Under the pieces are notes generated by a model. That model searched no databases. It saw nothing but the letters and a program-made list of their open reading frames with translations, and had not been told where the DNA came from. Below, one piece after another: positions 5,142 to 14,378 of a stretch of 64,000 nucleotides of DNA; position 1 is the first letter of the stretch; every line of letters starts with the position of its first letter. A program made the position numbers and the translations under genes. Source of the stretch: Gammaproteobacteria bacterium (GTDB lineage: Bacteria; Pseudomonadota; Gammaproteobacteria; Arenicellales; Poriferihabitantaceae). Where the stretch lies: assembly GCA_022822625.1 (NCBI GenBank), contig JAJEAV010000005.1, positions 9,965 through 73,964 of the forward strand. The letters are read 5' to 3'.

Positions 5142-7085
5142 ATGTCAATTGCAAGAAAATACCCAGTTAATCCTGACCTTGCCGCGTCGGCAAACATAGA
5201 TCTTCACGGTTATGAAGCCGATTATGCAGAATCCGTTCGCGACCCTGATGGATACTGGGCAAGACAGGCCGAGAAATACATGGACTGGTTCAGGCGGTGG
5301 GATACAGTACGCAATGTTGACTTTACAAAAGGTGATATTCGCTGGTTTGAGGGGGCCGAACTCAATGTCTGTGTCAATTGCGTGGACCGACACCTGGAGA
5401 CCCGAGGTGATCAAGTCGCAATCATCTGGGAATCAGATGATCCCAGTGTTGACAGAAAGATTACCTACAAGGATCTTCACGAAGAAGTCTGCAAGTTTGC
5501 CAATGTCTTGAAATCTCGCGGGGTAAAAAAAGGAGATCGCGTAAGTATCTATTTACCCATGATTCCCGAAGCAGCGGTTTCCATGCTGGCTTGTGCCCGT
5601 ATTGGGGCGATCCACTCCGTGGTATTTGGTGGGTTTTCGCCAGACGCATTGAAGGACCGGATTCTTGACTCGGACTGCCAGGTTGTCATTACCGCCGATG
5701 AAGGCCCAAGGGGTGGTAAAAATGTTCCTCTCAAGCAGAACGTTGAAAAAGCTCTGGAGAAGTGTCCCAATGTCCATACCACGATAGTCGTGAAACGAAC
5801 CGGCAACCCGGTTCCTGGAAATGCCGACCGTGATGTATGGTATGGGGAGGCTGTGGAGGTGGCTTCAGCAGATTGTCCCCCGGAACATATGGATGCAGAG
5901 GACCCGTTGTTTATTCTTTATACCTCTGGTTCAACGGGTAAGCCCAAAGGTGTTGTTCATACTTCTTTTGGCTATCAACTGTATGCGGCATTAACCCACA
6001 AGATGGTTTTTGACTATCATGACGGAGACATATACTGGTGTACTGCCGATGTAGGCTGGGTAACCGGCCACTCCTATATTGTTTATGGTCCACTGACCAA
6101 TGGTGCAACCACCCTGATGTTTGAGGGGGTGCCTACCTATCCGGATGCCAGTCGATTCTGGCAAGTGGTTGACAAGCACAGAGTGGAAATCTTTTATACG
6201 GCACCGACTGCAATTCGCGCACTGATGGGGCAGGGTGAAGAATTGGTCAAAAAAACGGACCGGAGTTCCCTGCGAATTCTGGGTACTGTGGGGGAGCCGA
6301 TCAATCCGGAAGCATGGGAATGGTATTACCATGTTGTTGGCAATGGGCGCTGCCCAATAGTCGATACATGGTGGCAAACCGAAACCGGAGGTATCATGAT
6401 TACACCATTGCCCGGAGCAATAGATCTGAAACCCGGGTCTGCAACTCGTCCGTTCTTTGGCATTCAGCCAGCCTTGATGGATGCAGAAGGTAATGAAATC
6501 AGTCTTGAAGGAGGTGCCGAAGGCAACCTTGTGATCAAGCAATCATGGCCGGGACAAATGCGCACTGTGTATGGTGATCATCAACGATTCATCGACACTT
6601 ATTTCAGTGCCTATCCAAACATGTACTTCACCGGTGATGGTGCGCGTTGCGATGAGGATGGATATTGGTGGATTACCGGACGGGTCGATGATGTTATCAA
6701 TGTTTCCGGTCACCGTATGGGTACTGCGGAAGTCGAGAGTGCGCTAGTGCTTCATGAAACCGTTGCCGAAGCAGCTGTGGTTGGATTTCCCCATGAGATC
6801 AAGGGGCAGGGGATTTACGCGTACGTTACCCTGATGCAAGGAGTTGAGGCGACTGACGATCTGAAAAAGGATCTGAGTGACCTCGTCAGAACGGAGATTG
6901 GTCCAATTGCCAAGCCAGACGTAATCCAGTGGGCACCGGGTTTGCCGAAAACCCGTTCAGGCAAGATCATGAGGCGAATATTGCGCAAGGTCGCCGCCAA
7001 TGAACTGGACAGTCTTGGAGACACAAGCACGCTGGCTGAACCTGCTGTGGTGGATGAGCTGATTGAAAACCGGGCAAATAAATGA
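5142..7085 (+). CDS. acs: Acetyl-CoA synthetase
   Basis: 647 aa. AMP-binding motif [11 protein letters not shown], a C-terminal [11 protein letters not shown] motif, and full-length similarity to Acs. Confidence 0.95.
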
Positions 7086-7089
7086 ATGC

Positions 7090-7574
7090 ATTTGCGGGTT
7101 TCGCGTCAGTAACCTGCAATATGCTGGACTGGAAGAGGTCTGGTCGGTCCGAACCCTCTGAACCAGCGTTGCACAACTCGTTACGAAAGAAAGCCTCTCT
7201 AATATGAATTGACTGGGAGCATTGACACCGTAGAGAAGTATGAAGCATGGAGGATTGACATGGCCAGGGCGGTATGGGCAAAGCTGAGAGCCAGCGATAG
7301 CCGGAAATATCGTAACTGTCATGCGTTTGAGTGCATGGATTTTACCATTCAGGAACCCCGGGCCAGATCAGACCACCAAACAGGGATAGACGAAGGACTA
7401 ATCTGCATCGACTGTCATCAGGGAGTTGCACACAAGCTGTCGTCGAACTGGCTTGAGGAATACGAGAAGTTGAAGAGCCCGGTATCGGCTTCAATATCTG
7501 GAAGGCTGTGGGTGGATGCACTGGCAAATACCGGCACCTATCAAGGTAACAATACGAGCTTACTGGCGAAATGA
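7090..7574 (+). pseudogene. Decayed NapC/NirT/TorC-family tetrahaem cytochrome c gene (C-terminal part only)
   Basis: IDTVEKYEAWRIDMARAVWAKLRASDSRKYRNCHAFECMDF...LICIDCHQGVAHKL matches the last two haem-binding regions of NapC. Upstream, another stretch reads ASVTCNMLDW...LRKKAS where NapC has ATCPDCH...IRKLKAS. There is an in-frame TAA at 7200-7202 and no N-terminal half. Confidence 0.6.
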
Positions 7575-7589
7575 ACCAGAAATTGGATT

Positions 7590-7849
7590 ATGCTTGAAAT
7601 TCTGGGGGGATCTTGGCAGGCAATGTCCTGAGTTTGCCGGGAATGTTCGGTCTGGGTATTGGCATGATGATTCGTTAACCGCATCTGGCTGGAAGTCTGG
7701 GCGGCTTTGTTGGCACATTGGTAGCCATGATATTTTCCGGATTCTCGCTTGCCCAGATCGATGTTCTTGAATTGACATTCCCGGTATGGGTTGGAATTGC
7801 TGCTGGTACGATCGGATGCATGATTCGCCATAGGGGTGCGACGGTATAG
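7590..7849 (+). pseudogene. Small glycine-rich membrane protein gene (GlsB/YeaQ/YmgE-like), disrupted
   Basis: ATG 7590 MLEILGG switches frame at a G6 run (7604-7609) to ILAGNVLSLPGMFGLGIGMMIR. An in-frame TAA follows at 7676-7678, then LAGSLGGFVGTLVAMIFSGFSL...GIAAGTIGCMI to TAG 7847-7849. Confidence 0.3.
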
Positions 7850-7917
7850 ACACCTTTTTTGGTCAGGAGTCGGGTTGGCTTCTTCCCTTGAAAGGTGACT
7901 GCGACAAAAGCGGTAGG

Positions 7918-8835
7918 TCAGAACTGTTGGTTATCGCCTTGATCGTATCCGGGGGCGATAACGAGATTTTCAACTCCATAGAGTGCTGGCCTGTTTTTTA
8001 GCCAGAGGTGGTATTCCGGTCCTTTCAGGATATGGTCTTGGGTGCAGTCCACATTCCATCTCCGAAGTGCATAGCCTGCAACCGCAGCCCTTACCTTGAC
8101 ATTCAACACGCCGTTTTTCATCGCATAGTCGGCTTCAATTGTTTCTGGATGCTTGAGATTTGGGTGCGGTACAAGTTCCAGTTCCAGAATTCTATTCCAC
8201 TGAATATCCGATTCACGAGTTTCATGTTCACCAATCGGACTGTCGATAATCATGGGGTTGGAAATGCGGGTGACAACGAAATCGGAAAATCTCGATTGTT
8301 TTCGATCATAGCTCCGGATGTGCCAGCGTAGTCCGTTATCGACCAGTACAAACGGAACAATTTCGCGGGTAGTCTTGCCGCTGCTAAGAGAGTGATAATC
8401 AATCCTTATCACTTTGTCCTGGTGTATGGCGCGGGTCAAAACCGACAGGGTTGAGAGTGATGGCCTGTTCATCTGCATGGGCGTCTCGCACGAAATTAAC
8501 GCCCGGTTTGCACCAGCAAAGTCGCTTCCAAAGCCATGTGTAAGTGCTGACAAAACCTGGTTAGACGAAGCATCGTATAGAGGCGAGAAAAGGTCTGAAC
8601 GTTCATAAGTCTTGGCCTTGGTATCGTACCTTAGATTGGTTGGGGCCAGTTCCCTGTACAAGGTTATATCCCTGGTTGCCGCTGCTCCCTTGATGCCAAA
8701 TCGGGTCACAAGGTCGTTGCGACTGATGGTTCCCAGAAAACCGATTCTGAAATCGATGTAGGCGAGACGTTCTTTCTGCGCCTTTGCAATGACTTTAGCT
8801 GGGGTAGGAGGAAGTTGATATCCGATTTCCATCAT
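7918..8835 (-). CDS. wHTH-WYL transcriptional regulator (BrxR/CapW-like)
   Basis: N-terminal ERLAYIDFRIGFLGTISRNDLVTRFGIKGAAATRDITLYRELAPTNLRYD (wHTH pattern of BrxR/CapW) and a WYL core VIRIDYHSLSSGKTTREIVPFVLVDNGLRWHIRSYDRKQSRFSDFVVTRI. 305 aa. Confidence 0.75.
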   Translation of the reverse strand: MMEIGYQLPPTPAKVIAKAQKERLAYIDFRIGFLGTISRNDLVTRFGIKGAAATRDITLYRELAPTNLRYDTKAKTYERSDLFSPLYDASSNQVLSALTHGFGSDFAGANRALISCETPMQMNRPSLSTLSVLTRAIHQDKVIRIDYHSLSSGKTTREIVPFVLVDNGLRWHIRSYDRKQSRFSDFVVTRISNPMIIDSPIGEHETRESDIQWNRILELELVPHPNLKHPETIEADYAMKNGVLNVKVRAAVAGYALRRWNVDCTQDHILKGPEYHLWLKNRPALYGVENLVIAPGYDQGDNQQF

Positions 8836-8850
8836 GTTTTCTTGATCATG

Positions 8851-8866
8851 ATATATTATAATATAT
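8851..8866. promoter_or_regulatory. Perfect 16-bp palindrome atatattataatatat in the divergent control region (candidate operator)
   Basis: Self-complementary when checked base by base. Lies 16 nt upstream of the WYL gene's ATG. The 11-mer tataatatata recurs at 8857-8867 and 8877-8887. Confidence 0.4.
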
Positions 8867-8896
8867 ACTATTACTATATAATATATAAATAATTAG

Positions 8897-8926
8897 TTGA
8901 CATACTCATATTGATTATAATATTAT
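8897..8926 (+). promoter_or_regulatory. Possible sigma70 promoter for the plus-strand cluster
   Basis: TTGACA at 8897-8902, an 18-nt spacer, then TATTAT at 8921-8926. Many alternative TATAAT-like hexamers occur nearby, so the assignment is tentative. Confidence 0.25.
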
Positions 8927-9090
8927 TGAATAACATCTTGCGGCAGTTACCGGATAAAAAGGATTTCGCGCAAGACAAGAGTCACGAAAAGGTTTTTCAT
9001 TTTTACGCACAGAATTATACATAACAAAGGCTTCGCCCTCTTGTCCAATGGAGTGTTAACTGGTGATTGCCTTCGCTGAAAGAGACAACG

Positions 9091-9549
9091 ATGGATAACA
9101 ATCAATTACGTTTCGTCCCCTGCGATGCAGGGTGTGGGATGTCCATTTGGACCAGGACTCCCAATGGAAAAGATTGCAGGATTGACCTTGGACGATCTGC
9201 CACATTCTCGCCAGTCAAGTACTTTCCAAAACACAACCTGAATCATTCGGTCGATTTCCTGACTCACCGCCATACGCCACCTGGGAGTGGTGTATATGCA
9301 AAATACCTGTCAGGACATGGGCGTCAATACAAAAACCTGACTGGAAAATTCTTGTCGTCATGCTTCATTGAAGAGGTGGCGTGCACCTGTTCCAGAATGG
9401 AGGAATGGTGTAGGGATAATATGAAAACAGCATCGGGAGGTATTGCAGCAAGGGCCTCGGGCCTTGCTTTTCGCATTAACGAACTGAAATCAGTCTTCGC
9501 CAGATTTCCTCTTAACGGAGGCCCTGCCTTGTCTGCTCTTGTACTGTAA
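9091..9549 (+). CDS. Hypothetical protein; half-length paralogue of the downstream MBL-fold-like protein
   Basis: LRFVPCDAGCGMSIWTRTPNGKDCRIDLGRSATFSPVKY parallels LHFTLWDVRRGISIWIRTPNGQDHWIDLGRIPEFSPSKY of the next ORF. It carries LTHRH and ends where the C-terminal half of the paralogue would begin. Confidence 0.5.
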   Translation: MDNNQLRFVPCDAGCGMSIWTRTPNGKDCRIDLGRSATFSPVKYFPKHNLNHSVDFLTHRHTPPGSGVYAKYLSGHGRQYKNLTGKFLSSCFIEEVACTCSRMEEWCRDNMKTASGGIAARASGLAFRINELKSVFARFPLNGGPALSALVL

Positions 9550-9583
9550 GGCCAAACCCAACCTTTATACAAGGAAAACAACC

Positions 9584-10450
9584 ATGACCAACGAACCACT
9601 TCACTTCACCCTCTGGGATGTCAGACGCGGAATATCCATCTGGATAAGAACTCCCAATGGACAAGACCATTGGATTGATCTTGGCCGCATACCAGAATTC
9701 TCTCCCAGCAAATACGTCAGAAAAAATCATTCGATAGGTTCAATAGAATTGTTGATCATCAGCAGGGCAGGCAAGACACATCTCGAAGACTTGCCGTCAT
9801 TCAAAGATCATTTCTCTTATCCATCTGTCCTTTATCGAAACCCGACAATCCCTGAAGCAGAGATATTTGGAGGCATGACACACAAATATCAGAAGCAATA
9901 TGCTGAATTGCACAGAAGATTTAACTGGCCGGGAGGCGATGATAATCCAGAAAGACCGTCAAACAATGGCGGGATAAGATACGCAATAAACTGTCTTGAT
10001 CATGGTTCCGTAGTCAGCAACCCCGCGCTTCCCGAATCTGCCGTGATTGAAAACAACAATACTTCCATAGTTGTGATGTTGCTGTATGCGGGCGTGCTGT
10101 TTGTCTGCCCGGGAGATATTGAGCCGCTTGGATGGCGCGAGCAATGGCATCACTACTCGAAAGAATATAAATACCTCATAAATCATTCACATGCGAGATT
10201 TCTGGTTGCTCCACAGCGCGGACACAAGGATGCCTACTGTGAGGAAATGATGGAGGCAATCCAGCCCCATGCCACCTTCATCAATGATGTCTGGGGAGAG
10301 TCCGAAATTCACCCGTCCTATAAAAGCGATCCGATAGGAATTCTCTATCGGGAGTCAGGGATGAAGAAGTATTTCTCGACCCGGCGAGCCGGGTCGGTCC
10401 GAGTCGCTGTCTACCCGAGTGGAGAGCACTGTATTCTTCAACGTAGCTGA
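9584..10450 (+). CDS. ComEC/Rec2-type metallo-beta-lactamase-fold-like protein with substituted metal ligands
   Basis: FTLWDVRRGISIWIRTPNGQDHWIDLG resembles FLDVGQGDxxLIxTPxGKxxLIDxG. NNTSIVVMLLYAGVLFVCPGDIE resembles NxxSLVLxxxYGxxxFLLxGDxE. LVAPQRGHKD sits in place of LKVxHHGSK. The HxHxDH position reads SRAGKTH. RBS aagga lies 8 nt before ATG 9584. Confidence 0.5.
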   Translation: MTNEPLHFTLWDVRRGISIWIRTPNGQDHWIDLGRIPEFSPSKYVRKNHSIGSIELLIISRAGKTHLEDLPSFKDHFSYPSVLYRNPTIPEAEIFGGMTHKYQKQYAELHRRFNWPGGDDNPERPSNNGGIRYAINCLDHGSVVSNPALPESAVIENNNTSIVVMLLYAGVLFVCPGDIEPLGWREQWHHYSKEYKYLINHSHARFLVAPQRGHKDAYCEEMMEAIQPHATFINDVWGESEIHPSYKSDPIGILYRESGMKKYFSTRRAGSVRVAVYPSGEHCILQRS

Positions 10451-10603
10451 CAAATGGGCAGGAGCAGGAATCTTGACTTGAAACCATGCCCTTGCCAAGG
10501 AGTATGCAATTGATAACAGATGCAAGTTGAGCAGAAGGAATGAAGAGTGTTATGAGAATGCTTCATGCTACCGACATTATGTTCATATGTTAGAGGATGA
10601 CCG

Positions 10604-10939
10604 GTGGAATATATTTATATTGCTTCCTGGACTTTCATGCTCATAGGGATTTACTACTTGTGGTCAGTAGACCGGAGGGGGAAGTTGAAGCATGAATCAT
10701 CGGAAGATATTGTTGGCTCTGGTCTTGCTGAAGACATTATTGACAGTTATATAGAGCCAGCGATGTTTGGCATCAGTCCTGCTGATCGCTTGTCCATTCG
10801 CAAGGATTTGCTTGCGCGTTTTAGCCAGAAATCTGGCGCCAAGATCGGTGAGCACAGATTCAATGGAAACATGCTGCACCACTGGATGAAATACAACGCT
10901 GCACGACTGATTGTTGAACACAGGAACGACATGCAGTGA
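10604..10939 (+). CDS. Hypothetical single-pass membrane protein
   Basis: GTG start preceded by gagga. N-terminal hydrophobic helix IYIASWTFMLIGIYYLW followed by an ~85-aa soluble tail. I recognise no family. Confidence 0.4.
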   Translation: MEYIYIASWTFMLIGIYYLWSVDRRGKLKHESSEDIVGSGLAEDIIDSYIEPAMFGISPADRLSIRKDLLARFSQKSGAKIGEHRFNGNMLHHWMKYNAARLIVEHRNDMQ

Positions 10940-11095
10940 GGATGTTCGCATTATCAGGACAAAGTCGGGCATTCTGGTGCCATCAAGAAGACTTTTACCT
11001 TGAATCGAATTATTTGACAACGAGATGAAGCAACAAGAAATGTATCCAAATTCAGAAGATCATATTTTACTCACACTATTTTTGGAGAATAGGCA

Positions 11096-11515
11096 ATGAA
11101 AAGAGTCTTATTAATTGCAATAGCTGTATCTGTGTTGACCGGATGTTTCGATGATGCAAAATTGGCATCACGAAATTTAAGCAAGGCTGCCGACAATTTT
11201 GAAGTCATGCGCCGGGTAGTATTCATGAATGGAATAACTGATGCCTACATGCTGGAGATAGTTGGTTTGTGTTCAATTACAGACCAGGAGCATCAACTCG
11301 AAGTTACTTGTAAAAACGGTGATCAGTACGTTAAGCATTTTCTGGGTCTAAGTGACAATGTGACCTATTTCACCGAGCAGCTGACCGCGATAAACGTTTC
11401 GGCAAGTCATTATCGAGTTACTTTCAAGCCGCAGGCGATTATTCCTGATTTTGATCTACGAGGTAGTTTTGAGGAGTTGATCACGAATAGTTCAGAAATC
11501 AATAGTCAAGGGTAG
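11096..11515 (+). CDS. Lipoprotein (phage/plasmid-type small beta-rich lipoprotein)
   Basis: Signal peptide with lipobox MKRVLLIAIAVSVLTG|C, and RBS ggaga. From memory, ASRNLSKAADNFEVMRRVVFMNGITD...LGLSDNVTYF...YRVTFKP resembles lipoproteins seen on plasmids and prophages. Confidence 0.6.
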   Translation: MKRVLLIAIAVSVLTGCFDDAKLASRNLSKAADNFEVMRRVVFMNGITDAYMLEIVGLCSITDQEHQLEVTCKNGDQYVKHFLGLSDNVTYFTEQLTAINVSASHYRVTFKPQAIIPDFDLRGSFEELITNSSEINSQG

Positions 11516-11577
11516 TGAAGGCCGTGACGGATTTAATTGGGCCACATCGCATAGATGAGTCATGTTTTTAACAACCC

Positions 11578-11814
11578 ATGGCAAGACCGGAACTGGTCAA
11601 ATCTCTCTATAAACTCCTTGGCATTGATCAAAGTCTGCCATTATTTCAGGAATCAGAGATATATCTAATTCTCAAAAATGTCACTTATAGAGTAGATAGG
11701 CTGAAGACTGAATCAACATTGCTGATACCGCTTTGTGAAAGCGGTGAGTTGATGATTGTCGGGGCGGAATACGATCTCAAATCCGGCGAGGTGGATTTCT
11801 CTTTGGAGAGTTGA
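11578..11814 (+). pseudogene. Possible C-terminal remnant of a beta-carbonic anhydrase
   Basis: NVTYRVDRLKTESTLLIPLCESGELMIVGAEYDLKSGEVDF resembles the beta-CA C-terminus (NVxxQVxxLxxSPxL...GxLxIxGAxYDLxTGxV). The zinc-binding N-terminal two thirds are absent. Confidence 0.3.
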
Positions 11815-12096
11815 TTAGTGATGGGCATAGTTGGTTACAATACCATTAGAAGCAACGATGATTTCTCAATCTGGTTTTGTGTAAATAATGGGACCTTGGC
11901 ATGATATCTATTGATTTATTGCCATTCTCCAATACTTGGTTTGATTATGGCCGTTTGTAGCTTTGGAGATTCACAGTGCTCTGCTGGCGATGCAAGGCAT
12001 GCTTGGTATTCAGAAATACAATATTCCTCAAAAAAATAATAGGGTTAGTTTTTTGACTCGGCAAACGACAATAATATACAAAACGAGGTCAAGTTT

Positions 12097-12737
12097 ATGA
12101 GTAAGGCGAGAGGAGTAAGGCGAGAGACGATCTTGAGAATTCTTTAAAAGGCAAGACTTTTGGAACAGTTTTAGCAGATCCGCCTTGGCGGTTTACCAAC
12201 AGGACCGGGAAGGTTGCTCCTGAGCATCATCGTCTTTCTCGGTATGGAACATTGTCCTTCGAGGAAATAAAGGATCTACCTGTTATCGACTTGATGGAAG
12301 ATGTAGCACACTGTTATCTATGGGTTCCGAATGCACTGCTGCCATATGGCTTGAATACGCTTGCCGCATGGGGGTTTCAATACAAGACCAACTTGATTTG
12401 GCATAAAGTCAGAAAGGACGGCGGATCAGACGGGCGAGGGGTTGGTTTTTACTTTCGCAACGTCACAGAAGTGGTGTTGTTTGGAGTTAAAGGGAAAAAC
12501 GCCCGGACTCTACCTCCAGGGCGAAGCCAGGTTAATTTGATTGCTGCCCGAAAGCGTGAGCATTCTCGTAAACCTGATGAGCAATATGACCTGATTGAGA
12601 GATGTAGCTGGGGCCCGTACCTCGAATTATTTGGTCGAGGCACGCGAGAGGGGTGGACAGTCTGGGGTAATGAAGCAGTCAAATATCAACCCGACTGGCC
12701 AACCTACCCATACAACTCTGCTGTTGCAGCTCAATGA
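12097..12737 (+). pseudogene. MT-A70-family DNA methyltransferase (DPPW), frameshifted by a 14-bp tandem duplication
   Basis: FGTVLADPPWRF (DPPW at 12177-12188) and downstream HCYLWVPNALL...EHSRKPDE. ATG 12097 runs into TAA 12145-12147. Removing one 14-nt copy restores a 208-aa ORF. Confidence 0.8.
12099..12126. repeat. Perfect 14-bp tandem duplication (gagtaaggcgagag x2)
   Basis: 12099-12112 equals 12113-12126, checked base by base. Confidence 0.95.
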
Positions 12738-13482
12738 AAACCATTGCGGATCTAAAGGATGTAGGATTTGACATTCATGCCGTCAATCACGCTATGGCGG
12801 TTCTAACGAAGGACTTCCCTGACCCTTTGGGAGAATTATGCTCAGCCCTTCTTGATATCCATATTCCAGATGTAGAGTTGGTCAAGTCAGGAGGTGGTGA
12901 ATCGCCGGTTACACAAAGACTGCGCAGGGAATTAACAGAATTGAACTGGCTAAAGCGAAGGGTCGTAATCAGAAAAACAGTTGACAATGTCGAGAGACAT
13001 TCAATCACACATGAGATTGATCACATGAGATTGATCACATGAGGGTGACTGAAAAAGGAGTAGTTGCATTAGAGATCGAGTGGAACAACAAAGATCCGTT
13101 TTTTAATCGTGATCTTGATAATTTCCAGCGACTGCATAGCGAGGGGGCAATTAGCGTTGGTGTCATTGTTACCCGTGGTAGTTCTCTTCAGGAAAACCTA
13201 ATCCAAATCATAAGTGCATGCGTTATGAGGCATAAAGTTGCAGAGTTCGGGGATTTGGAAATGCATTACGATTGGGTGCCGACTCCAAGACAACGTAACA
13301 ACATGAGGGATAAAAAGGGAGACTTTGGCCAGGAGTGGGTCAAGCAGTTCGTTAAAGACAAATTTGGACAATCGACCACACACTGGAAAAAATTGCAGGA
13401 TAGGATAAAGCGCGGAGTTGGCAACCCATGTCCATTACTTTTGGTCGGTATACCAGACACAGTTATTTATCAAGGGAAATAA
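12734..13482 (+). pseudogene. Type II restriction endonuclease (BamHI/BglII-like PD-(D/E)xK), split by a 14-bp tandem duplication
   Basis: HEID...VALEIEWNNKDPFFNRDLDNFQRL...GAISVGVIVTR parallels BamHI ID...VGMEFETGNISSAHRSMNKL...GEIDLAIILMP. The track shows two ORFs (12734-13042 and 13039-13482). Removing one repeat copy fuses them in frame (244 aa). ATGA overlap with the methylase stop. Confidence 0.65.
13008..13035. repeat. Perfect 14-bp tandem duplication (cacatgagattgat x2, plus a partial third copy cacatgag to 13043)
   Basis: 13008-13021 equals 13022-13035, checked base by base. Confidence 0.95.
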
Positions 13483-13601: not shown

Positions 13602-14378
13602 TTATTCGATAAACTCGAATAGCCATTCGGTTAATTTCCCGGGTTCTTCGGCGTGTAGCCAGTGTCCTGAATCTGGCATAGTCTGAATGCTTGAGTTTGG
13701 AAACTGTTCTGCGATGAGACTGTAGTGCTCAGGAAGAATATAGTTTGAATTGCCACCCCGAACAAAAAGAATCTCGGCATCAGAAACATTGCCTTTCGAA
13801 TATCCAAACAGTAGGCTTCGGTTATTGGCAATTGCTTCAAGGTTGATTCTCCAGGCAAACCCACTTTCGTCTCGTATCAGGTTTTGGAGCAGGAATTGCC
13901 TGATTGATTGATCTGGAATGTCCAGTGTCAACATTCGGTCTGCCTCGTTTCTTGAATGAATATTCTCAAGGTCAAGTTTTCCCAAGGCACTAATAAGTTC
14001 ATCATGATCATGGGAGTAGTCAACCGGTGCGATATCAACAATCACGCATTTGTCCACTTCAGGTTGATGATGTTGCAGGTAAGCCATCACGACCTTGCCT
14101 CCCATACTGTGTCCAATCAAAAGGGGTTTTGCTAGGTGGCTGTTATGGATGAATGCTGCGAGATCTTCGGCCATATCCGGATAGCTCATCGAGTCTCTCC
14201 ATTCTGATTTCCCATGATTGCGAAGATCAACGCAAAAAACAGAAAATCGAGCAGCGAGTTTTGAGGCGATTGTTCGCCAGTTGCTGGATGAGCCAAACAG
14301 TCCATGCAGGATAACCACCGATGGATTTGATGGCTCTCCCATGTGGATTGAATTCAGATTGACGATCATCTGTTGCAA
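13602..14378 (-). CDS. Alpha/beta-hydrolase esterase (YbfF-like)
   Basis: VILHGLFGSSSNWR, nucleophile elbow GHSMGG, a C-terminal DSGHWLH motif; 258 aa. Confidence 0.8.
   Translation of the reverse strand: MQQMIVNLNSIHMGEPSNPSVVILHGLFGSSSNWRTIASKLAARFSVFCVDLRNHGKSEWRDSMSYPDMAEDLAAFIHNSHLAKPLLIGHSMGGKVVMAYLQHHQPEVDKCVIVDIAPVDYSHDHDELISALGKLDLENIHSRNEADRMLTLDIPDQSIRQFLLQNLIRDESGFAWRINLEAIANNRSLLFGYSKGNVSDAEILFVRGGNSNYILPEHYSLIAEQFPNSSIQTMPDSGHWLHAEEPGKLTEWLFEFIE

What the first reader, a model, noticed from the sequence alone, without database searches (positions are those of the whole stretch)
7918..11515. Divergent BrxR/CapW-like WYL regulator facing an uncharacterised four-gene cluster: candidate novel regulated defence/exclusion module
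Seen in the sequence:
- A 305-aa wHTH-WYL protein (7918-8835, minus strand) is transcribed divergently from four plus-strand ORFs across a 255-nt spacer. The first ~100 nt of that spacer are about 85% A+T by my count and carry a perfect palindrome.
- The four ORFs are a half-length and a full-length MBL-fold-like paralogue (9091-9549, 9584-10450), a single-TM protein (10604-10939) and a lipoprotein (11096-11515). None has a housekeeping identity I can recognise.
- The block lies between acs and a ybfF-like esterase, is surrounded by gene remnants, and is followed by a disabled R-M pair. This is typical defence-island context.

Established knowledge: BrxR/CapW-family wHTH-WYL proteins repress BREX, CBASS, R-M and other anti-phage operons, and they bind palindromes in the adjacent promoter.

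Inference: the MBL-like pair, with or without the membrane and lipoprotein genes, is an effector module under WYL control. I do not recognise this gene combination as any named defence system.
Basis: partly seen in the sequence, partly recalled or inferred. Interest (0 to 1): 0.82.

Follow-up and report, generated by a model that had tools for sequence, protein, structure and literature searches.

The report
Decaying BrxR-controlled MBL and lipoprotein cassette
A real BrxR-type repressor faces a small mobile cassette that probably once served phage defence, but here one of its two enzyme-like genes is a deletion remnant and the other has lost its catalytic metal-binding residues, so this copy is an eroded variant rather than a clean new system.

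Summary
The interpretation needs four corrections.

1. The "half-length paralogue" (9091-9549) is a pseudogene. Two internal deletions removed about 550 nt of a full-length gene, A.
2. The full-length gene B (9584-10450) has a ComEC-like metallo-beta-lactamase (MBL) fold. It resembles PADLOC's untested candidate family PDC-M48B. B and its tandem-duplicate clade have lost the HxDxDH and HHG metal ligands that about 100 other family members keep.
3. The "lipoprotein" belongs to Pfam Phage_VG64, a very widespread family of phage lipoproteins.
4. The four genes are not one obligate unit. A sister strain at the same site keeps BrxR and VG64 but has deleted B. Another genome keeps A and B but has lost BrxR and the VG64 signal peptide.

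The parent MBL family has intact active sites and is usually coupled to a patatin phospholipase. It sits in defence islands and is preceded by interchangeable BrxR or CapH/CapP regulators. A conserved promoter at 8897-8926, with a dyad in its spacer, is the likely operator. The AT-rich "perfect palindrome" is at chance level and not conserved.

Verdict: a decaying new variant of a known kind of candidate. Interest is moderate.

The parts
7918..8835 (-). brxR/capW-family wHTH-WYL transcriptional regulator, 305 aa, intact
   Evidence: Pfam WYL E 3e-11. Matches PDB 7qfz BrxR at E 3e-90 over residues 14-299, and also CapW 7tb5/9c5g/7tb6 and BrxR 7t8k. Orthologues in L002, L021 and L041 give dN/dS 0.14-0.17.
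8897..8926 (+). Conserved sigma-70-like promoter (TTGACA, spacer, TATTAT/TATAAT) for the plus-strand genes
   Evidence: Scores 11 of 12 in the promoter scan. The -35 and -10 boxes are conserved in L001, L021 and L041; the L002 stretch aligned covers only the -10 side.
8901..8917 (.). Candidate BrxR operator: dyad ATACTCA-N3-TGATTAT inside the promoter spacer (consensus TAATCA-N3-TGATTA)
   Evidence: A dyad centred on the same alignment column occurs in W, L021 and L001. Binding has not been tested.
8851..8866 (.).
   Evidence: It is present, but equalled in 84 of 500 shuffles and not conserved in relatives. It is probably just AT-rich brxR promoter DNA.
9007..9073 (+). Nearly invariant 5' leader block of unknown role (RNA helix or second operator)
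   Evidence: It is almost identical in 5 loci whose coding dS is 0.5-1.7. RNAalifold proposes a helix pairing AAGGC with GCCTT, with one compensatory change in L001.
9091..9549 (+). Pseudogene: remnant of MBL paralogue A (~290 aa when intact)
   Evidence: Window and L002 are colinear at 7203-9257 and at 9504-10510, but about 550 nt are missing between these blocks. Against L001 A, only codons 1-57 and ~90-122 survive. The motif-2 region and the whole C-terminal half are gone.
9584..10450 (+). MBL paralogue B: intact ORF, ComEC-like MBL fold, metal ligands substituted (SRAGKTH for SHPDKDH; APQRG for APHHG)
   Evidence: PADLOC PDC-M48B E 8.6e-22. AF2 pLDDT 90.6, Foldseek top hit ComEC 9ic4 E 1e-12. 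Family profile against ComEC gives E 2.8e-9 with motifs aligned. Motif table of 109 homologues. dN/dS 0.13-0.19.
10604..10939 (+). Small protein with one N-terminal hydrophobic helix, 111 aa, no family assignment
   Evidence: Homologous ORFs occur in L002/L003 and L001/L012 (HMM E 1e-70 to 2e-40). dN/dS 0.26 against L003. It is truncated in L001 and frameshifted in L041.
11096..11515 (+). Phage_VG64-family lipoprotein, 139 aa
   Evidence: Pfam PF25682 E 1.3e-52 and phrog_478 E 4.7e-50. It matches 934 phage records and more than 7,245 protein clusters. The L-x-G-C lipobox is invariant, including in a mycobacteriophage and a roseophage. dN/dS 0.10.

Best explanation
Window 7918-11515 is a small, horizontally mobile cassette headed by a BrxR repressor. 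It carries two separable payloads.
- Payload 1 is a tandem pair, A and B, of ComEC-like MBL-fold proteins. They descend from a defence-island MBL family, but both have lost the binuclear-metal ligands.
- Payload 2 is a small membrane protein plus a phage-type VG64 lipoprotein.

Shown:
- The anatomy described above.
- A is a deletion pseudogene in this window, while B, TM, VG64 and BrxR are intact and under purifying selection.
- The MBL part is eroding in this host lineage.

Inferred:
- A BrxR dimer sits on the conserved dyad within the promoter at 8897-8926 and represses the plus-strand operon until phage infection or DNA damage relieves it, as described for BrxR and CapW.
- B, and formerly A together with B, no longer hydrolyses nucleic acid. 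If it does anything, it acts as a non-catalytic binder of nucleic acid or phosphate, or as a scaffold. Arg replaces His at two ligand positions.
- VG64, with the TM protein, acts at the envelope, most plausibly in superinfection exclusion.

In this window the original A/B function is probably lost or reduced. The part best maintained is BrxR plus VG64.
For: - BrxR identity.
- Promoter and dyad conservation.
- A is a remnant.
- B fold and ComEC relation.
- Clade-specific ligand loss: only 8 of 109 homologues, all from the tandem clade, lack the ligands.
- Purifying selection: B 0.13-0.19, A 0.20-0.30, BrxR 0.14-0.17, TM 0.26, VG64 0.10.
- The cassette is a discrete unit. Homology between the window and Ca. 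Poriferihabitans (L001), which has different flanking genes, starts inside brxR (8599) and ends 23 nt after the VG64 stop.
- The payloads are separable. L041-L044 keep an intact BrxR and VG64 but retain only 112 codons of A fused to a TM remnant, with B gone. L001 keeps A and B, but BrxR is cut to 79 residues and VG64 lacks its signal peptide.
- Defence-island setting and regulator swapping in the parent family.
- Characterised defence MBLs (HamM and the Avs2-associated MBL) are ComEC-like DNases whose activity requires the MBL active site (PMC12799240, PMC12642450, PMC13069673).
Against: - No member of this family or of PDC-M48 has a tested phenotype. PDCs were defined by guilt-by-embedding only.
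- Loss of activity is inferred from motifs alone. The motif-4 Asp and the last His of motif 2 are retained, so a non-canonical activity cannot be excluded.
- BrxR binding to the dyad is untested. The dyad has 6-7 bp arms with a 3-nt spacer, whereas the characterised operators have 10-11 bp arms with a 5-nt spacer (PMC9122601).
- Co-transcription of TM and VG64 with B is not shown. The gaps between these genes are 153 and 156 nt.
- The function of VG64 is unknown. Its AF2 model was poor (pLDDT 59).
- All the loci of the tandem clade come from metagenome assemblies.
Confidence: 0.55

Rival explanations
1. The locus is a functionally dead graveyard. The MBL genes are relics on their way to deletion, and only BrxR and VG64 matter. 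BrxR regulates itself and the phage-derived lipoprotein, which excludes superinfecting phages. B has no role.
For: - A is destroyed in W, frameshifted in L002 and deleted in L041. B is deleted in L041, while BrxR and VG64 stay intact with dN/dS 0.10-0.17.
- B lacks its catalytic ligands.
- The neighbouring nap operon, carbonic anhydrase and R-M genes are also decayed.
Against: - B keeps a full 288-codon ORF. Its dN/dS is 0.19 against L002 and 0.13-0.17 against more distant copies.
- The ligand substitutions are shared by the whole tandem clade and therefore predate the decay, in genomes where A and B are both intact (L001, L011).
- In L001 it is BrxR and VG64 that decay, while A and B persist.
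Confidence: 0.25
2. The MBL family is not immune. It is a phospholipid or phosphodiester-processing enzyme that works with patatin, in the manner of the MBL-fold phosphorylcholine esterase Pce. It would serve membrane remodelling or host interaction in sponge symbionts, and BrxR linkage would be incidental island neighbourhood.
For: - Foldseek hits 2-4 are the phosphorylcholine esterase Pce/CbpE.
- The commonest partner is a patatin with an intact Ser-Asp dyad, translationally coupled to the MBL gene.
- Most hosts are sponge-associated MAGs.
Against: - The best match by both fold and sequence profile is the ComEC nuclease domain, with its catalytic motifs aligned.
- PADLOC relates the family to PDC-M48B and, more weakly, to the MBLs associated with Lamassu, DRT and Avs.
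- All annotated loci sit beside defence or mobile genes, and are preceded by BrxR or by CapH/CapP-like pairs.
- The patatin partner is absent from the window's clade.
Confidence: 0.12
3. A and B still form an active enzyme with non-canonical chemistry, or a composite active site across a heterodimer. The intact cassette would then be a working nuclease-type effector system, merely broken in this window.
For: - The motif-4 Asp (CPGDIE), the final His of motif 2 and two downstream His residues are invariant even in the degenerate clade.
- Both paralogues are under purifying selection.
Against: - The first His of motif 2 and the second His of the HHG motif are replaced in every A and B sequence.
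- The remaining ligand positions then drift (D to G, N, T, S or M), which is the pattern expected once metal binding is lost.
- In characterised defence MBLs, active-site mutants lose function (PMC12642450, PMC13069673).
Confidence: 0.08

Closest known systems
BrxR / CapW wHTH-WYL repressors of defence operons (BrxR of E. fergusonii pEFER, PDB 7qfz; BrxR of Acinetobacter, 7t8k; CapW, 7tb5/7tb6/9c5g)
   Same: Full-length sequence homology (E 3e-90 to 2.5e-21). Divergent placement next to an accessory cassette in a variable island. A conserved dyad lies in the adjacent promoter.
   Different: The controlled genes are not BREX, CBASS or R-M. The candidate dyad is shorter (6-7 bp arms, 3-nt spacer) than the 10-11 bp arms with 5-nt spacer reported for BrxR (PMC9122601). 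Binding and ligand response are untested.
PADLOC candidate PDC-M48, component B (an untested 'phage defence candidate' two-gene cassette, FAM_01875>>FAM_00178; Payne et al. 2024 preprint)
   Same: Both B and A-type proteins, and all family members tested, match the PDC-M48B HMMs (E 1e-8 to 1e-37). A strong PDC-M48B member (E 2e-137) lies two genes downstream of a family member in L006.
   Different: The scores are those of a related subfamily, not a member. No PDC-M48A match was found in the window ORFs scanned or in the neighbours examined. PDC-M48 itself has no experimental support.
Defence-associated ComEC-like MBL nucleases (HamM of HamMAB Hachiman; the MBLs paired with Avs, Lamassu and DRT)
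   Same: Stand-alone ~290-370-aa ComEC-like MBL fold encoded in defence islands. There are weak PADLOC matches to the LmuA, RTasMBL and Avs1a MBL models.
   Different: Those MBLs are zymogens cut by an adjacent trypsin-like, caspase-like or subtilisin-like protease, and they need an intact active site (PMC12799240, PMC12642450). Here no protease gene is adjacent, the usual partner is patatin, and the window clade lacks the metal ligands.
ComEC beta-lactamase-like nuclease domain (PDB 9ic4, 9vcb)
   Same: Best fold match (E 1e-12, TM 0.64-0.68) and best profile match (E 2.8e-9). The family consensus motifs HPDxDH, GDIE and PHHG align with the ComEC motifs.
   Different: This is a soluble single-domain protein with no competence or membrane domains. 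The window protein has SRAGKTH and PQRG at the ligand positions.
Pfam PF25682 Phage_VG64 / PHROG 478 phage lipoproteins
   Same: Full-length match at 55-65% identity to proteins of Mycobacterium, Bacillus, Gordonia and Roseovarius phages. The lipobox and two further Cys residues are invariant.
   Different: Here the gene is chromosomal and sits behind a BrxR-controlled promoter. The 'recombination directionality factor' label in some phage records does not fit a secreted lipoprotein and was not verified.

Membership tests
BrxR/CapW family (wHTH-WYL-CTD repressors) | Three-domain architecture (N-terminal winged HTH, WYL, C-terminal dimerisation domain), homologous over the full length to solved BrxR/CapW structures | tested here: met
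   Matches 7qfz at E 3e-90 with residues 14-299 aligned to 8-294, and also CapW and BrxR-Acin. Pfam WYL hit. Orthologues carry precomputed WHD_BrxR, WYL and BrxR_CTD hits.
BrxR/CapW family (wHTH-WYL-CTD repressors) | Located next to phage-defence genes or inside defence islands | tested here: inconclusive
   It sits next to PDC-M48B-like MBL genes and a decayed R-M pair. None of the adjacent genes is an experimentally validated defence gene.
BrxR/CapW family (wHTH-WYL-CTD repressors) | Binds inverted repeats in the adjacent promoter and represses transcription | not testable with these tools
   Only a conserved candidate dyad at 8901-8917 inside a conserved promoter is available.
Metallo-beta-lactamase superfamily, ComEC-like branch | alpha-beta/beta-alpha MBL fold | tested here: met
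   AF2 pLDDT 90.6. Foldseek top hit ComEC 9ic4 at E 1e-12, followed by Pce, CPSF73 and RNase J.
Metallo-beta-lactamase superfamily, ComEC-like branch | Metal-binding motifs: HxDxDH (motif 2), Asp (GDIE) and HHG | tested here: not met
   Window B has SRAGKTH and APQRG where the family and ComEC have SHPDKDH/THPDADH and PHHG. Only the GDIE Asp and the last motif-2 His remain. B is therefore a structural member but probably not an active enzyme.
PADLOC PDC-M48 (candidate two-gene system) | Component B (MBL family FAM_00178) | tested here: inconclusive
   B matches two of the PDC-M48B HMMs at E 8.6e-22 and 1.2e-15. A true member in L006 scores 1.9e-137. This indicates a related subfamily.
PADLOC PDC-M48 (candidate two-gene system) | Component A (FAM_01875) encoded immediately upstream of B | tested here: not met
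   No PDC-M48A hit for any window ORF scanned or any neighbour examined. The upstream gene is another MBL paralogue.
Protease-activated MBL nuclease modules (HamM, Avs-MBL) | Adjacent trypsin-like, caspase-like or subtilisin-like protease that cleaves the MBL zymogen | tested here: not met
   No protease domain was found in the window cluster or next to family members. The partners are patatin, a second MBL or small proteins.
Pfam PF25682 Phage_VG64 | Full-length match above the gathering score, with a conserved lipoprotein signal | tested here: met
   177 bits against a cut-off of 27, residues 4-121 on profile positions 8-126 of 127. The lipobox is conserved in phage homologues.

The most novel reading that the evidence does not exclude
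The tandem A/B proteins are ComEC-like MBL 'pseudo-nucleases' in which Arg or Tyr replace the metal-binding His residues. They would have been repurposed as non-catalytic sensors or binders of nucleic acid or nucleotides in a previously undescribed BrxR-controlled immune cassette. Its output would be delivered at the envelope by the TM protein and the VG64 lipoprotein. More broadly, the parent MBL-patatin pair would be a new two-gene anti-phage system common in sponge symbionts.
Probability: 0.15. Interest if true: 0.65.

Novelty: new variant of a known kind. Interest (0 to 1): 0.42.

Why it matters
If the intact cassette defends against phages, it would show that an immune MBL nuclease fold can be kept after its catalytic site is lost. 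It would also give the very widespread but uncharacterised VG64 phage lipoprotein family a regulated, testable context.

The more useful lead lies outside the window. A stand-alone ComEC-like MBL is translationally coupled to a patatin phospholipase and recurs in defence islands behind interchangeable BrxR or CapH/CapP regulators. Neither PADLOC v2 nor the papers I searched describe this pair.

The window's own copy mainly illustrates how such cassettes erode in a symbiont lineage.

Tried and rejected
- NCBIfam and PHROGs gave nothing for A, B or the TM protein.
- A single-sequence PDB search of B gave only noise. The family profile was needed.
- Rfam found no family in 7000-12500.
- I could not learn what PDC-M48A is. 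The preprint supplement gives only family numbers, and a text search for 'PDC-M48' found no paper.
- The AF2 model of VG64 was too poor (pLDDT 59), so I ran no fold search on it.
- I planned a systematic PADLOC scan of about 150 neighbour ORFs, but dropped it. My crude ORF caller picked wrong-strand ORFs in high-GC loci. I used called genes with Pfam hits for ten loci instead.
- dN/dS values for the L041 remnant of A were internally inconsistent (amino-acid identity 0.64-0.76 but dN above 1), so I discarded them.
- I rejected the reading of TM plus lipoprotein as a spanin pair, because VG64 is equally common in phages of Gram-positive hosts.
- I rejected the 'RDF' label for VG64, because the lipobox is invariant.
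- The host organism could not be named.

Full report
**1. Observation**

The six-frame ORF list confirms the following features:
- a 305-aa minus-strand ORF at 7918-8835;
- a 255-nt spacer;
- plus-strand ORFs at 9067/9091-9549, 9539/9584-10450, 10604-10939 and 11096-11515.

The first 100 nt of the spacer are 85.0% A+T. They contain a perfect 16-nt palindrome, ATATATTATAATATAT, at 8851-8866. In sequence this AT-rich, palindromic arms of 8 or more appear in 84 of 500 shuffles. That stretch also does not align with the relatives. I therefore give the palindrome no weight.

The flanks are as described. They are acetyl-CoA synthetase at 5142-7085 and an alpha/beta hydrolase at 13602-14378, followed by SRAP and rnc.

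**2. The regulator**

The 305-aa protein carries a WYL domain. It is homologous over its full length to solved BrxR and CapW structures:
- 7qfz (BrxR of E. fergusonii), E 3e-90, residues 14-299;
- CapW 7tb5, 9c5g and 7tb6;
- Acinetobacter BrxR 7t8k.

Membership of the BrxR/CapW family is established by sequence. DNA binding and repression could not be tested here.

**3. The two 'MBL-like' ORFs**

ORF2, which I call B, has no Pfam or NCBIfam hit. It does match PADLOC's PDC-M48B models (E 8.6e-22). An AF2 model built on 35 homologues is confident (pLDDT 90.6). Its best PDB fold match is the beta-lactamase-like nuclease domain of ComEC (9ic4, E 1e-12). The next matches are the phosphorylcholine esterase Pce, CPSF73 and RNase J. 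A family profile also finds ComEC by sequence (E 2.8e-9). In that alignment the family consensus SHPDKDH, GDIE and PHHG line up with ComEC's THPDADH, ADIE/GDIE and PHHG. 'MBL-fold' is therefore correct.

ORF1 resembles B only over its first ~58 residues. Related loci show why. In L002/L003 (B 83% identical), L001/L012 (Ca. Poriferihabitans), L011 and L021, a gene of 268-292 aa, which I call A, sits immediately upstream of B. It is full-length in L001, L011 and L021, and frameshifted near the C-terminus in L002/L003.

DNA comparison shows that the window is colinear with L002 at 7203-9257 and again at 9504-10510. About 550 nt of A are missing between these two blocks. Against L001, only codons 1-57 and ~90-122 of A survive. 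ORF1 is therefore a deletion pseudogene, not a half-length paralogue.

**4. Loss of the catalytic site**

I aligned all 109 homologues found in the 5.8-billion-protein search. About 100 of them keep WDVGHG, SHPDxDH, CPGDIE and APHHG. Only the eight protein clusters of the tandem A/B clade depart from this:
- B proteins read SR(A/E/P)(G/D)K(T/M/N/D)H and AP(Q/Y/H)RG.
- A proteins read SYPD(R/W/K)(N/S)H and APRRG.

Two changes are shared by every A and B sequence. The first His of motif 2 is replaced by Arg in B and by Tyr in A. The second His of HHG is replaced by Arg. The remaining ligand positions then drift. The window's B is the most eroded copy (SRAGKTH, APQRG).

Characterised defence MBLs need an intact MBL active site (PMC12642450, PMC13069673). 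I therefore infer that B is not an active metallo-nuclease. This rests on motifs only.

The genes are nonetheless not neutral. dN/dS is 0.13-0.19 for B and 0.20-0.30 for A.

**5. The other two genes**

The 111-aa protein has one N-terminal hydrophobic helix and no family assignment. It has orthologues in L002/L003 and L001, with dN/dS of 0.26.

The 'lipoprotein' is a full-length member of Pfam Phage_VG64 (E 1.3e-52) and of PHROG 478. The family is very large:
- It matches 934 phage records, from Mycobacterium, Bacillus, Gordonia, Streptococcus and an N4-like roseophage, at 40-65% identity.
- It matches more than 7,245 protein clusters in the large database.

The L-x-G-C lipobox and two further cysteines are invariant, even in the mycobacteriophage and roseophage copies. 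The 'recombination directionality factor' label carried by some records is therefore doubtful. The function of the family is unknown. My AF2 model was poor (pLDDT 59).

**6. Is it one module?**

Homology between the window and Ca. Poriferihabitans (L001), whose flanking genes are different, begins inside brxR (8599) and ends 23 nt after the VG64 stop codon. The block from brxR to VG64 therefore behaves as one transferable cassette.

Its parts, however, are lost independently in different genomes:

| Locus | brxR | A | B | TM gene | VG64 |
|---|---|---|---|---|---|
| L001/L012 | cut to 79 codons | intact | intact | lacks first 28 codons | lacks signal peptide |
| L002/L003 | intact | frameshifted near codon 227 | intact | intact | intact |
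| Window | intact | two internal deletions | intact | intact | intact |
| L041-L044 | intact (311 aa) | only 112 codons remain, fused to the TM remnant | deleted | frameshifted remnant | intact (91% identical) |

L041-L044 come from a sister lineage and occupy the same acs-nap site as the window.

BrxR (dN/dS 0.14-0.17) and VG64 (0.10) are constrained in every comparison. The cluster is therefore better described as a BrxR-headed mini-island with two separable payloads. In the window's host lineage the MBL payload is eroding.

**7. Regulatory DNA**

Alignment of the intergenic regions of five loci shows a conserved TTGACA-N16-18-TATAAT promoter, at 8897-8926 in the window. The -35 and -10 boxes are conserved in L001, L021 and L041. 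The L002 stretch aligned covers only the -10 side. A dyad lies in the promoter spacer. Its consensus is TAATCA-N3-TGATTA, and the window reads ATACTCATATTGATTAT at 8901-8917.

This dyad is the best operator candidate. It is shorter than the 10-11 bp repeats with a 5-nt spacer reported for BrxR (PMC9122601).

Downstream, a ~45-nt leader block at about 9007-9055 is almost invariant, although synonymous divergence in the coding regions is 0.5-1.7. RNAalifold proposes a helix pairing AAGGC with GCCTT, with one compensatory change in L001. Rfam has no match. The role of this block is unresolved.

**8. The parent family**

In at least 13 distinct loci, the intact-motif MBL gene is followed at once by a patatin gene, often with a 4-nt overlap. 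The patatin partners keep the GGGxR, Ser and DGG catalytic motifs. They have no PADLOC match.

Other loci carry a second MBL paralogue or a small 154-171-aa protein instead.

The annotated loci lie beside:
- SIR2-HerA (L007/L008, L040);
- type III or type I R-M (L004, L038);
- E1-E2-JAB genes (L005, L039) and a Prok-E2 gene (L038);
- an AAA_15 ATPase, integrases and transposases.

The MBL gene is preceded divergently by a CapH/CapP-like HTH plus M78 pair in L006 and L040. A similar pair lies just downstream of it, on the opposite strand, in L039. In the window clade that upstream position is held by BrxR. BrxR/CapW and CapH/CapP are the two known interchangeable regulator types of defence operons. 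This swap is the strongest indirect argument for an immune role.

The hosts are mainly sponge-associated MAGs from many phyla. An exhaustive HMM search finds 94 clusters (at 50% identity) at E of 1e-30 or better, and 789 at 1e-10 or better.

PDC-M48 itself is an untested 'guilt-by-embedding' candidate. I found no component A match here.

**9. Comparison and verdict**

The regulator is a member of a known family. B is structurally a ComEC-like MBL and is related to a listed but untested candidate defence component. It fails the catalytic-motif test. It also lacks the protease partner that defines the characterised HamM and Avs MBL modules (PMC12799240, PMC12642450).

The window's copy is a degraded variant. 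A is dead, B is probably non-catalytic, and the neighbours have decayed too:
- the nap operon is deleted between 7085 and 7203;
- a carbonic-anhydrase remnant lies at 11578-11814;
- the MT-A70 methylase is truncated;
- the BglII-type endonuclease is split.

I rate the finding as a new variant of a known kind, of moderate interest (0.42). Most of that interest comes from three leads: the pseudo-enzyme idea, the BrxR-VG64 linkage, and the uncharacterised MBL-patatin module found in the relatives.

Noticed in passing
L004 8001-10000; L005 8001-9964; L007 8001-10000; L009 8001-9974 (and L013, L018, L019, L025, L027-L030, L032): A stand-alone ComEC-like MBL with intact metal motifs is followed at once by a patatin phospholipase with intact catalytic motifs; in L005 and L007 the two genes overlap by 4 nt. 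The pair recurs in defence islands of sponge-associated MAGs from many phyla. The patatin partner has no PADLOC hit. This looks like an undescribed two-gene candidate defence module.
   Followed up: partly
window 9007-9073: The 5' leader upstream of the A remnant is almost invariant in five loci, although coding dS is 0.5-1.7. RNAalifold suggests a helix pairing AAGGC with GCCTT, with one compensatory change in L001, plus a 5' hairpin with a few compensatory pairs. There is no Rfam match.
   Followed up: partly
window 7085-7574: Relative to L002 and L041, about 4.5 kb carrying napF, napD, napA, napB and the 5' half of napC has been deleted. Only the 3' part of napC remains (7209-7574, Cytochrom_NNT profile positions 96-172).
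   Followed up: yes
window 11578-11814: A 78-aa ORF matches only the C-terminal ~45 residues of beta-carbonic anhydrase (Pro_CA / PRK15219). It is probably a gene remnant.
   Followed up: no
window 12252-13482: An MT-A70 methyltransferase begins ~27 residues later than a 192-aa Rhizobium plasmid homologue. Its BglII/BstYI-type endonuclease partner is split into two overlapping ORFs. The sister strain L041 instead carries an intact N6_N4 methylase and XcyI-type endonuclease at this position, so the site is a variable R-M slot.
   Followed up: partly
L005 13232-16644; L039 11378-16104; L038 4447-9861: Near several family members lie a 372-377-aa protein and an E2/E1/JAB fusion; the L005 copy of the 377-aa protein matches the LmuA/RTasMBL/Avs1a MBL models. 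In L039 these are followed by a patatin-like protein. In L038 a family MBL lies downstream, on the same strand, of a Prok-E2 gene.
   Followed up: no
L036 3001-3423 (Roseovarius phage 1 orf37); L037 1950-2330 (Mycobacterium phage Ellie gp51): VG64-family proteins annotated 'site-specific recombination directionality factor' in several phage records carry an invariant lipoprotein signal (L-x-G-C). The RDF label is probably a propagated mis-annotation.
   Followed up: partly
window B versus L001 B, compared with the flanking genes: Between the window or L002 and L001, B is much more diverged (dS 1.7-1.8, 65% amino-acid identity) than the adjacent A (L002 versus L001, dS 0.6) or VG64 (dS 0.6, 89% identity). 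This hints at faster evolution or replacement of B within the cassette.
   Followed up: no
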